This document shows, one piece after another, positions 6,154 through 8,129 of a DNA stretch of 64,000 nucleotides. The position numbers were made by a program, and so were the translations under genes. The stretch lies in NCBI RefSeq assembly GCF_009914755.1, contig NC_060936.1; one strand, given 5' to 3'. Positions within the stretch are counted from its first letter, which is position 1. Every line of letters starts with the position of its first letter. A model generated the notes under the pieces. The model saw nothing but the letters and a program-made list of their open reading frames with translations, made no database searches and had not been told where the DNA came from. Origin of the DNA: the human T2T-CHM13v2.0 reference genome, Homo sapiens.

Positions 6154-6484
6154 GTCTGGCAGTTGAGGCCAGGCATGATGACTCAAATCTGTAATTCCAG
6201 CACCTTGAGAGGCCAAGATGGGAGGATCACTTGAGCGCAAGAGTTCAAGACCAGCCTGGGCAATATAGAGAGACCCCCTCCCCACAACGCTGCCATTCTA
6301 CAAAATATTTTAAAAATTTAGCTGGGCATGGTGCTGTGCATCTGTGGTCCCAGCTACTCAGGAGGCTGAGGTGAAACAATTGCTTGAGCCCCGGAGTTCG
6401 AGGCTGCAGTGAGCCATGATCACGCCACTGCACTCCAGACTGGGTGACAGAGCAAGACCCTGTTTCAAAACAAAACCAAAAAAA
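5393..6484 (+). mobile_element. Three sense Alus (two AluS-like, one AluJ-like) next to the exon-15-like remnant
   Basis: Alu sequence; recurrent target-site motif aaaa(g)tctgacaattg. Confidence 0.95.
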
Positions 6485-6486
6485 CT

Positions 6487-6582
6487 GACAATTGAGAAAT
6501 GGTCATCAGCCAGTATCCCTGCAGTGCCAGACCCCATGGCAATGCCAGCCTTCACTGTCTTCAACATGGGAACAGCCTTCAT
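6487..6582 (-). pseudogene. SERCA exon-15-like remnant (P-domain hinge)
   Basis: [32 protein letters not shown] versus SERCA [40 protein letters not shown]. First 21 codons are ungapped, then a 7-codon deletion; preceded by a pyrimidine tract. Confidence 0.88.
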
Positions 6583-8129
6583 GGTAGGAAAGAGAGCCTG
6601 GGACCTGATTATCATGTAAAGATAAATTCTCCACAGTGCAGAGCAGACAGGCAATTTACAGGTACCTGTAGCATAAAATTTAACAGCCATAAAAGAAGCT
6701 TTATCCATTTTGGAAACGGGGAAAAAAAACAAAGCTGAGTCTTTTGGAGAAGAAAGATAAAGTGAAATTTCATCTTTGATTTTCTCTGGGAAACATTGTA
6801 AACTAGTTAAAAGACAGACTGCAGAGGGAAGGAAACAATGAGAATTTCAGCTTTTTCTCTGTCCTTTTACTTGTTTATTTTAAATATATATGTAACTATA
6901 AAGCAAGAAAATGGAAGTCACTAGAGTTACATGTATCTACACTTGTATTTTTAGCTTTATATGAATAAACCTACAAAAAAAAAAAAACCCCAGGCCAGGC
7001 GCAGTGGCTCACGCCTGTAATCCCAGTAATCTGGGAGGTCGAAGAAGGCAGATCACTTGAGCTCAGGAGTTCGAGACCAGCCTGAGCAACATGGAGAAGC
7101 CCCATCTCTACAAAAAAATGCAAAAATTAGCCGGATGTGGTGGGGCATGCCTGTAATCCCAGCTACTCGGGAGGCTGAGGCGATTGCTTGAGCCTGAGGG
7201 GCAGAGGTTGCAGTGAACAGAGATTGCTCATGGGTGATAGAGAAGACTCTGTCTCAAAAAGATAAATAAATAAATAAATAAATAAATAAATAAATAAATA
7301 AATAAAAATTTTAAAAAACATAATAGTGAGTAAAACAAAACAAAATGCCGGATATGTACAAAATTTGTAAGTTTTGTGTAAACTATGAAAAATACCAGAT
7401 AATACAGTTTGCATTGTTTTGTTTTGTTTTTGTTTGTTTTGAGACAGACTCTCGCTCTGTCGCCCAGGCTGGAGTGCAGTGGCACTATCTCGGCTCACTG
7501 CAACCTCCACCTCCCAGATTCAAGCAATTCTGCCTCAGTCTTCCGACTAGCTGAGATTACATGCAAGCGCCACCACACTTAGCTAATTTTTGATTTTTTT
7601 TGGTAGAGATGGGGTCTCACCATGTTGGCCAGGCTGGTCTCGAACTGCTGACCTCGTGTGATCCACCCACCTCGGCCTCCCAAAGTGCTGGGATTACAGG
7701 TGTGAGTCACCACGCCTAGCCCATTGTTGTTTGTGGATATACTTATCTATAGTAAAAATACAAGAATATGCATGAGAATGATAAACCCCAAGTTCAGGAT
7801 AGAGGTTACCACTGGGAAAGAAAGGTCGAGAATGAGTTTCAAGGAACATACAAGGAACTTCAGTTCTAACAATAATGTTTTATTTCTAAATGGTGCATAG
7901 ATGAGTGTTTATTATATTATTATTGTACTTTTTTCTGTGCCTGAAATGTGTCTTAGTTTTAAAAACGGGGGTGGCGGGAATTTGAAGCCTCTATACCTTC
8001 AATAATGTCTCTGTATCTTCCATAACGTTAATGGATATGTTTGTTGTTACAAGATTAAATCAAATGGTTTACGTTTTAGGAGGGCTGGGCCTTAAGATCA
8101 GCCTAAGATGAAGGTGCCTGCAATGTCTC

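What the first reader, a model, noticed from the sequence alone, without database searches (positions are those of the whole stretch)
6167..6600. Exon-15 remnant: catalytic hinge destroyed, with Alu insertion dating the gene's death
Seen: 32 codons, [32 protein letters not shown], with many codons one base from SERCA2 (ATG AAG GCT GTT vs GTG AAC GAT GCT). The pyrimidine tract ctctctttcct runs straight into ACC ATG, so the acceptor AG and most of the TGDG motif appear deleted. An AluJ-like element abuts the remnant right after ATT GTC, and its target-site motif overlaps the exon end. Inference: the gene was dead by, or killed during, the early-primate AluJ wave.
Basis: partly seen in the sequence, partly recalled or inferred. 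Interest (0 to 1): 0.7.

Follow-up and report, generated by a model that had tools for sequence, protein, structure and literature searches.

The report
Stray copy of SERCA2 exon piece
About 100 bases lying 16 kb upstream of the human calcium-pump gene ATP2A2 are a decayed, back-to-front copy of part of that gene's exon 15, but the piece stands alone and looks like an inert fossil, not the remains of a whole dead gene.

Summary
On the minus strand, 6585-6487 reads [33 protein letters not shown].

**Evidence that it derives from SERCA**
- It matches ATP2A2 exon 15 at 72 of 99 aligned bases.
- tblastn gives E 0.004 over 134 kb, and 0 of 200 simulated copies of the intergenic region score as high.
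- blastn gives E 7.5e-7.
- It uses the gene's own codon at 11 of 20 identical residues, against 5.9 expected (P 0.013).

**Evidence against a dead gene**
- It is the only SERCA-like piece in the 62 kb between IFT81 and ATP2A2.
- No neighbouring exon, exon junction or poly(A) tail is present.
- The likeness stops in mid-exon.

**The Alu**
- 6167-6484 is an old, J-like Alu, and its target-site repeat overlaps the end of the fragment.
- It inserted at the edge of the likeness, not inside it. It therefore gives a minimum age for the fragment, not a date of death.

**Best reading**
A short inverted copy, probably of genomic DNA, that never functioned and is at least as old as the Alu. Its divergence at codon positions 1 and 2 is about 21%, against 12% for the Alu. 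It is not in the supplied RefSeq table and is of low interest.

The parts
6487..6585 (-). SERCA exon-15-like fragment: 33 codons, [33 protein letters not shown]. It corresponds to about nt 1-132 of the 248-nt ATP2A2 exon 15.
   Evidence: sequence and frame. (72/99 bases identical to ATP2A2 exon 15; differences by codon position 7, 7, 13). (tblastn E 0.004). (17 of 17 PDB matches are SERCA, E 0.6-1.2).
6494..6581 (-). Core of firm DNA-level homology to exon 15, holding a net 21-nt gap where the gene encodes AKTASEM. The ungapped blastn segment is 6521-6581.
   Evidence: local alignment score 30.5; shuffles 13.0 +/- 1.6, maximum 20.0. (blastn E 7.5e-7, 73.8% over 61 nt).
6586..6945 (-). Single-copy 5' flank.
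   Evidence: only itself in the genome. (lenient alignment score 48.8; 2 of 400 unmatched and 0 of 400 GC-matched null pieces reach it). (rank 7 of 2936 windows with lenient scoring, 145 with medium, unremarkable with strict). (blastn does not pick intron 14). (last 150 nt of intron 14 and of exon 14 are both no better than shuffles).
6167..6484 (+). Old, J-like Alu (Alu2) with an A-rich tail, abutting the fragment.
   Evidence: both arms match the SRP RNA model. (16.0% non-CpG divergence from the local Alu consensus, rank 109 of 115). (old-type base at 9 of 14 locally derived diagnostic columns). (27/225 = 12.0% from the old-type consensus).
6479..6494 (+). Target-site direct repeat copy next to the fragment. 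Read on the minus strand it holds the fragment's last codons.
   Evidence: 16-nt repeat family at 5845-5860, 6150-6165 and 6479-6494.
6150..6165 (+). Middle copy of the direct repeat, between the two Alus.
5860..6153 (+). Younger, S-like Alu (Alu1), inserted next to the 5' end of Alu2 at nearly the same target.
   Evidence: 6.1% non-CpG divergence. (0 of 14 old-type bases)..
5686..5859 (+). Unit U2: the single-copy-like DNA that followed the fragment before the Alus arrived. It ends in the direct repeat and shows no likeness to the rest of exon 15.
   Evidence: score 9.5; shuffles 9.1 +/- 1.3. (score 16.0; 340 of 400 null pieces score as high)..
5216..5688 (+). Unit U1 (5216-5393, 90.8% identical to U2) followed by the youngest Alu (Alu0, about 5394-5688). 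This is a local 470-nt duplication of 'unit plus Alu', or an Alu insertion with a very long target-site duplication.
   Evidence: 158/174 identical. (Alu0 1.7% divergence).

Best explanation
The stretch is an orphan pseudo-exon fragment: a short, inverted, decayed copy of the first half of ATP2A2 exon 15. It may have come with a few hundred bases of intron 14. It lies 77 kb upstream of the real exon and about 16 kb upstream of the ATP2A2 start.

It most likely arrived as a short piece of nearby genomic DNA. The copying could have been a small inverted duplication or a template switch during replication or break repair. This mechanism is inferred, not shown.

It was never part of a working gene and has drifted neutrally since. 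An old J-like Alu later inserted at its edge, and an S-like Alu then inserted next to that one.

Shown: descent from SERCA, solitude in the intergenic region, the end of the likeness in mid-exon, and the order fragment, old Alu, younger Alu.

Inferred: the copying mechanism, the DNA rather than RNA template, the lack of function, and an age of very roughly 100 million years.
For: 1. Homology is real.
- tblastn E 0.004 with 7 of 7 SERCA queries.
- 0 of 200 simulated intergenic copies reach that score.
- blastn E 7.5e-7.
- Local DNA alignment scores 30.5 against shuffles of 13.0 +/- 1.6.
- At 20 identical residues the codon is the gene's own in 11, against 5.9 expected (P 0.013). Chance likeness at the peptide level alone would not give this.

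2. The source is ATP2A2 or ATP2A1, not ATP2A3.
- Identity is 72, 68 and 63 of 99 bases respectively.
- At sites where the paralogues differ, the fragment sides 10:1 with ATP2A2 over ATP2A3 (p 0.01) and 6:2 with ATP2A2 over ATP2A1 (p 0.29). Position favours ATP2A2.

3. The fragment is solitary.
- 18 HSPs over the real gene's exons were recovered as a positive control.
- The only other hit below E 1 upstream of the gene is this fragment.
- A SERCA profile of 40 sequences finds only this ORF among 3248 ORF pieces (iE 0.05; next 16).

4. The likeness stops in mid-exon, and the DNA beyond shows nothing.

5. Neutral decay fits the data.
- Differences by codon position are 7, 7 and 13, with catalytic residues replaced.
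- 14/66 changes at positions 1 and 2 give a Jukes-Cantor distance of 0.25, against 12.0% for the adjoining old Alu.

6. There is a weak hint that the 5' flank matches the end of intron 14, which would mean a DNA template.

7. No predicted protein among 5.8 billion resembles the non-Alu part of the frame. The supplied RefSeq table has no feature here.
Against: - The intron-14 likeness is not robust. It ranks 145 of 2936 windows with medium scoring, is unremarkable with strict scoring, and is not picked by blastn. An RNA template is therefore not excluded.
- All three gaps in my codon alignment are multiples of three (9, 21, 3 nt), as coding constraint would give. Only the 21-nt gap is firmly placed, and I set the other two by hand.
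- The excess of third-position differences could also reflect a period under selection.
- The junctions of the copied piece cannot be resolved, so no mechanism can be read from them.
- The age confidence interval (12-33% divergence) overlaps the Alu's 12%.
- No other species could be examined.
Confidence: 0.55

Rival explanations
1. Dead-gene relic. A complete inverted ATP2A2 paralogue once lay head-to-head with ATP2A2. This is its exon 15, and everything else was deleted or has decayed.
For: - The fragment starts within about 12 nt of the true exon start.
- The gaps are in frame as I aligned them (9, 21, 3 nt).
- More differences fall at third positions (13) than at first or second (7 each).
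- The frame is open for 162 codons.
Against: - No other SERCA-like piece lies in the 62 kb from the end of IFT81 to the start of ATP2A2, by tblastn with 7 proteins or by a 40-sequence profile.
- Long exons (112-162 codons in the real gene) decayed by about 21% would be far easier to detect than this 33-codon piece.
- Only about 15.7 kb lies between the fragment and the ATP2A2 start to hold 14 upstream exons. Those exons span about 60 kb in the real gene.
- The second half of the same exon is missing.
- The 7/7/13 pattern is what neutral decay of the copy plus silent change in the real gene predicts.
- An open frame of this length is not unusual in 64 kb (my estimate, not computed).
Confidence: 0.12
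2. RNA-templated patch or truncated retrocopy. A piece of ATP2A2 (or ATP2A1) transcript was reverse-transcribed and inserted at a break or an L1 nick, like the templated sequence insertions described in human genomes.
For: - The firm likeness is confined to exon sequence.
- ATP2A1 is almost as close as ATP2A2 (68 against 72 of 99 bases; same-codon count 11 of 20 for both). Only an RNA route could bring ATP2A1 sequence here from chromosome 16.
- Templated insertions of cDNA and of intronic or intergenic pieces are described in PMC5110952. I read its abstract and sections 8 and 9.
Against: - The 5' flank shows no likeness to the end of exon 14 (score 9.0; shuffles 9.2 +/- 1.5).
- No exon 16 sequence, poly(A) tail or flanking duplication of the fragment's own is visible.
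- There is a weak hint of intron-14 likeness instead. Unspliced RNA could give that too.
- Lying 16 kb from the parent gene would be a coincidence for a retrocopy.
Confidence: 0.17
3. Chance resemblance. Unrelated intergenic DNA happens to translate into a SERCA-like peptide.
For: - The match is short.
- On their own the PDB matches (E 0.6-1.2) and the Pfam match (Hydrolase_3, E 0.19, below its cut-off) are not significant.
- By scaling the E-value, a score of 33.5 bits would be expected many tens of times by chance across a 3.1-Gb genome (my arithmetic).
Against: - Within the a-priori search space next to ATP2A2, the E-value is 0.002-0.004.
- 0 of 200 simulated copies reach the score.
- The DNA-level E-value is 7.5e-7.
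- Synonymous codons match beyond expectation (P 0.013), a measure largely independent of the peptide score.
Confidence: 0.03

Closest known systems
ATP2A2 (SERCA2) exon 15, P-domain 'hinge' segment [44 protein letters not shown]
   Same: GIAMGSGTA is identical and LADD-FS is retained. 72 of 99 aligned bases are identical, and the gene's own codon is used at 11 of 20 identical residues.
   Different: - GDG is absent, and the N and D of VND are replaced by K and A.
- The 7-codon AKTASEM segment and one further codon are missing.
- The second half of the exon and all other exons are absent.
- The strand is opposite, 77 kb away, outside the gene.
Pseudogenic gene fragments (orphan duplicated exon pieces) in mammalian genomes
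   Same: A short non-functional copy of part of a gene, with no promoter or neighbouring exons, decaying neutrally.
   Different: None in kind. This one is not in the RefSeq table supplied with the finding. My paper searches found no description of it (listings only, plus passages of PMC10561730, which concern an unrelated control pseudogene).
Processed pseudogenes of P-type ATPases, for example the intronless PMCA-like frame on chr8 and the ATP7-like frame on chr18 seen
   Same: Dead copies of P-type ATPase sequence carrying the same hinge motif.
   Different: Those run for 150-250 codons across what are separate exons in the parent genes (the exon structure of the parents is recalled, not tested). 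The fragment here is 33 codons with no junction to exon 14 or 16.
Templated sequence insertions (class 2: break-repair patches), Onozawa and Aplan 2016, PMC5110952
   Same: A short piece templated from elsewhere in the genome, with no visible target-site duplication or poly(A) tail of its own (for the definition).
   Different: Those are recent polymorphisms with readable junctions. Here the junctions are eroded, so microhomology or untemplated bases cannot be checked, and a DNA template seems slightly more likely.

Membership tests
Sequence derived from a P2A (SERCA) ATPase gene | Best protein matches are SERCA rather than other P-type ATPases | tested here: met
   All 17 of 17 PDB sequences matched at E <= 10 are SERCA1 or SERCA2; none belongs to another protein. 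tblastn with 7 of 7 vertebrate SERCA proteins hits it.
Sequence derived from a P2A (SERCA) ATPase gene | Nucleotide-level homology to a SERCA exon beyond what the peptide likeness requires | tested here: met
   blastn E 7.5e-7. Same codon at 11 of 20 identical residues against 5.9 expected, P 0.013.
Duplicated or unitary pseudogene (a whole dead gene) | Several exons of the parent in collinear order on one strand | tested here: not met
   Only one SERCA-like piece lies in the 62 kb upstream of ATP2A2. 18 HSPs over the real gene's exons were recovered as a control.
Duplicated or unitary pseudogene (a whole dead gene) | The exon is present over its whole length with its splice sites | tested here: not met
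   The likeness covers about nt 13-132 of 248. The rest of the exon is absent. There is no AG at the expected acceptor.
Processed pseudogene (L1-mediated retrocopy) | Adjacent exons joined without an intron | tested here: not met
   The 5' flank against the end of exon 14 scores 9.0, with shuffles at 9.2 +/- 1.5. No exon 16 likeness was found downstream.
Processed pseudogene (L1-mediated retrocopy) | A poly(A) tail and target-site duplication of its own | tested here: not met
   None is visible around 6487-6585. The only direct repeats belong to the Alus. Great age could have erased them.
Alu, old (J-like) subfamily, for 6167-6484 | Dimeric 7SL-derived element of about 300 nt with an A-rich tail and flanking direct repeats | tested here: met
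   Both arms match the SRP RNA model. The tail is at 6467-6484. The 16-nt flanking repeat is shown.
Alu, old (J-like) subfamily, for 6167-6484 | Subfamily diagnostic bases and high divergence | tested here: inconclusive
   It ranks 109 of 115 local Alus by divergence (16.0%) and has the old-type base at 9 of 14 locally derived diagnostic columns, against 0 of 14 for its two neighbours.
Templated insertion or template-switch patch | Junctions with microhomology or untemplated bases; an empty site in outgroups | not testable with these tools
   The junctions are eroded and no other vertebrate genome could be searched.

The most novel reading that the evidence does not exclude
The fragment is the last readable trace of a second SERCA gene that lay head-to-head with ATP2A2 in an early mammal or earlier and was then lost. 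If so, the three-gene SERCA family of mammals once had a fourth, tandem member.
Probability: 0.1. Interest if true: 0.5.

Novelty: new member of a known kind. Interest (0 to 1): 0.15.

Why it matters
It matters little for biology. It is a small molecular fossil that records an old local copying event next to a disease gene (ATP2A2; the link to Darier disease is taken from the abstract of PMC10561730).

Its practical uses are as an annotation note and as a caution. A short motif-rich match beside its parent gene is real homology here, but one exon-like piece is not evidence of a dead gene. An Alu at the edge of a fragment does not date a gene's loss.

If comparative data showed collinear exons in other lineages, it would become evidence for a lost SERCA paralogue.

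Tried and rejected
- Pfam on the 162-codon frame and on the 38-residue peptide gave only sub-threshold noise: DUF7865 at E 0.12 and Hydrolase_3 at E 0.19.
- Own-genome search with the peptide found itself and one noise hit on chr17 at E 6.
- Own-genome search with the real exon-15 peptide listed 24 places, none of them this fragment. I took those places to be P-type ATPase genes and pseudogene-like copies from their positions, which is recall, not a test. That tool's first look is too coarse for this match.
- A search for any predicted protein like the non-Alu part of the frame (residues 1-112) among 5.8 billion proteins found none.
I repeated it with default settings and 200 copies.
- A first flank alignment was swamped by Alus on both sides. 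I redid it on Alu-free stretches.
- The test for a spliced exon 14-15 junction was negative, as was the test for the intron-14 acceptor region with ordinary scoring.
- A test for intron-14 likeness with lenient scoring was suggestive only. I do not count it as shown.
- An own-genome DNA search with 6485-7400 was crowded out by an Alu at about 6971-7311. I repeated it on 6586-6965, which is single-copy.
- Paper searches for an ATP2A2 pseudogene gave nothing relevant in the listings.
- I considered and rejected the idea that the fragment belongs to an interspersed repeat family. Searches found only the fragment and its flank themselves, although very old repeats could escape that search.

Full report
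**What is there**

Read on the minus strand, window 6585-6487 gives [33 protein letters not shown]. They lie in a 162-codon stop-to-stop frame (6846-6361) that continues into antisense Alu sequence.

The window is T2T chr12:110236001-110300000, and the genome could be searched. I fetched the rest of ATP2A2 and located the true exon 15 at window 83879-84126. It has a ...ccctttcag acceptor and a gtaggt donor.

**Is it more than chance?**

On their own, protein-library matches are weak.
- PDB phmmer gives E 0.6-1.2, although all 17 of 17 matched sequences are SERCA1 or SERCA2.
- Pfam gives only Hydrolase_3 at E 0.19, below its cut-off.

In the relevant search space the match is significant. I took full-length vertebrate SERCA proteins from a database search. 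I ran tblastn with them over 134 kb, from the end of IFT81 to beyond ATP2A2.
- For P0106, 18 HSPs over the real gene's exons were recovered.
- The only other hit below E 0.7 was 6570-6487(-), at E 0.004 and 33.5 bits.
- All 7 of 7 queries gave that hit, and no other place upstream of ATP2A2 scored below E 1.
- In the 62-kb intergenic stretch alone the E-value is 0.002.
- 0 of 200 Markov-3 simulated copies of that stretch reached 33.5 bits; the maximum was 31.2.

The DNA level agrees.
- 18 coding pieces of the real gene (3306 nt) were searched against the 62 kb. Exon 15 nt 14-74 matched 6581-6521(-) at E 7.5e-7, and the next best hit was E 0.049.
- A local alignment scored 30.5, against 13.0 +/- 1.6 for shuffles.

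There is also a largely independent check. At the 20 residues identical to SERCA2 (Met left out), the fragment uses the gene's own codon in 11. From local trinucleotide frequencies 5.9 are expected (P 0.013).

I take descent from a SERCA gene as established.

**Which SERCA?**

Identity in a codon alignment is 72/99 to ATP2A2, 68/99 to ATP2A1 and 63/99 to ATP2A3. At sites where the paralogues differ, the fragment sides as follows:

| Comparison | Split | p |
|---|---|---|
| ATP2A2 against ATP2A3 | 10:1 | 0.01 |
| ATP2A2 against ATP2A1 | 6:2 | 0.29 |

ATP2A3 is excluded. ATP2A2 is favoured by sequence only slightly, but strongly by position.

**How far does the likeness reach?**

- *3' side.* It ends at the Alu target site. 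With the Alus set aside, the next 115-164 nt show nothing like the rest of exon 15 or intron 15. One test scored 9.5 against shuffles of 9.1 +/- 1.3. Another scored 16.0, with 340 of 400 null pieces scoring as high.
- *5' side, ordinary scoring.* Neither the last 150 nt of intron 14 nor the last 150 nt of exon 14 scores above shuffles. The pyrimidine run is therefore not shown to be the old acceptor tract, and no spliced junction is present.
- *5' side, lenient scoring.* The 360-nt flank aligns collinearly with the last 300 nt or so of intron 14, with 178 matches, 82 mismatches and 64 gap columns. The score of 48.8 is reached by 2 of 400 random pieces and by 0 of 400 GC-matched pieces. In a full scan it ranks 7 of 2936 windows. 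It ranks only 145 with medium scoring, is unremarkable with strict scoring, and blastn does not find it.

I treat the intron-14 likeness as a hint of a genomic-DNA template, not as a result.

**Is it an exon of a dead gene?**

The evidence says no.
- Besides tblastn, a profile of 40 SERCA proteins was run over 3248 ORF pieces of the 62 kb. It found only this frame (iE 0.05; next 16).
- The fragment differs from the gene at 14 of 66 first and second codon positions. Other exons decayed to that degree should be much easier to detect than this 33-codon piece, especially the long ones of 112-162 codons seen. None is there.
- Only about 15.7 kb separates the fragment from the ATP2A2 start. The 14 upstream exons occupy about 60 kb in the real gene.
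- Half of exon 15 itself is missing.
- The difference pattern 7/7/13 by codon position fits neutral decay of the copy plus silent change in the living gene.
- The three in-frame gaps (9, 21, 3 nt) would suggest constraint. Only the 21-nt gap is firmly placed.

**The Alus**

- 6167-6484 (+) is an Alu with 16.0% non-CpG divergence from the consensus of 115 local Alus, rank 109 of 115.
- It carries the old-type base at 9 of 14 columns that separate the most diverged local Alus from the least diverged. Its two neighbours carry 0 of 14.
- This supports 'AluJ-like'. RepeatMasker was not available, and my recognition of J-type motifs is from memory.
- A 16-nt direct repeat occurs at 5845-5860, 6150-6165 and 6479-6494.
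- This layout fits an old Alu inserting first, then an S-like Alu (5860-6153, 6.1% divergence) inserting 2 nt from its 5' end at nearly the same target. This order of events is an inference.
- The repeat copy next to the fragment contains the fragment's last codons. The fragment was therefore there first.
- Against a consensus of the other old local Alus, the old Alu is 12.0% diverged (27/225). The fragment is 21% diverged (14/66; 95% CI 12-33%).
- The fragment is thus as old as the Alu or older, with a point estimate about 1.7 times older. Taking a recalled age of about 65 My for AluJ, that is very roughly 100 My.
- The Alu sits at the edge of the likeness and interrupts nothing recognisable. 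It neither killed nor dates a gene.

**Mechanism**

The most economical reading is a short copy made once. It took in the first 130 nt or so of exon 15, perhaps with the adjoining end of intron 14. It was placed in inverted orientation 77 kb away on the same chromosome. Such a piece could arise from a small inverted duplication or from a template switch during replication or break repair.

Short templated insertions, from cDNA as well as from intronic or intergenic sequence, are documented in human genomes. The source is PMC5110952, of which I read the abstract and sections 8 and 9. An RNA template remains possible.

No function is indicated.
- The catalytic TGDGVND residues are gone.
- No similar predicted protein exists in a 5.8-billion-protein library.
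- The supplied RefSeq table lists nothing here.

**Known or new?**

The kind is well known: a pseudogenic fragment. I found no description of this one. The searches were 'ATP2A2 / pseudogene / SERCA' and 'ATP2A2P' (listings only). The pseudogene passages of PMC10561730 concern an unrelated control gene. Pseudogene catalogues and repeat annotation could not be consulted.

**Limits**

No other vertebrate genome could be searched. Age, junctions, and the dead-gene alternative in other lineages therefore remain untested.

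Noticed in passing
window 5216-5860: A local duplication of about 470 nt. Unit U1 (5216-5393) plus a young Alu (about 5394-5688, 1.7% diverged) is followed by unit U2 (5686-5859, 158/174 = 90.8% identical to U1) plus the S-like Alu. Both units end in the same 16-nt motif, so that motif occurs four times. This is either a tandem duplication of 'unit plus Alu' or an Alu insertion with a target-site duplication of about 175 nt. The U1/U2 differences cluster in the first 93 nt or so.
   Followed up: partly
L023 (G000:C8:19504081-19507290), frame at locus 1450-1908 (+): An open frame of 153 codons resembling a plasma-membrane Ca-ATPase (PMCA) from the hinge into the following membrane segments. 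It has no visible intron, so it looks like a processed pseudogene. The PMCA assignment is from memory of the family motifs, not from a search.
   Followed up: no
L030 (G000:C18:22603730-22606882), minus-strand frame of 247 codons: An intronless frame resembling a copper-transporting ATPase (ATP7A/B-like hinge and membrane segment). It is probably another processed pseudogene. The family assignment is from memory.
   Followed up: no
chr12:110196001-110330000 (window -40000 to 94000): 115 near-full-length Alus lie in 134 kb, about one per 1.2 kb. The region around ATP2A2 is very Alu-dense.
   Followed up: no
window 6319-6370, 5527-5577, 5991-6042, 7128-7179: Sub-threshold Rfam matches to the mir-1268, mir-3135 and mir-1285 families all fall inside Alus. 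They reflect the likeness of those families to Alu sequence, not separate genes.
   Followed up: no
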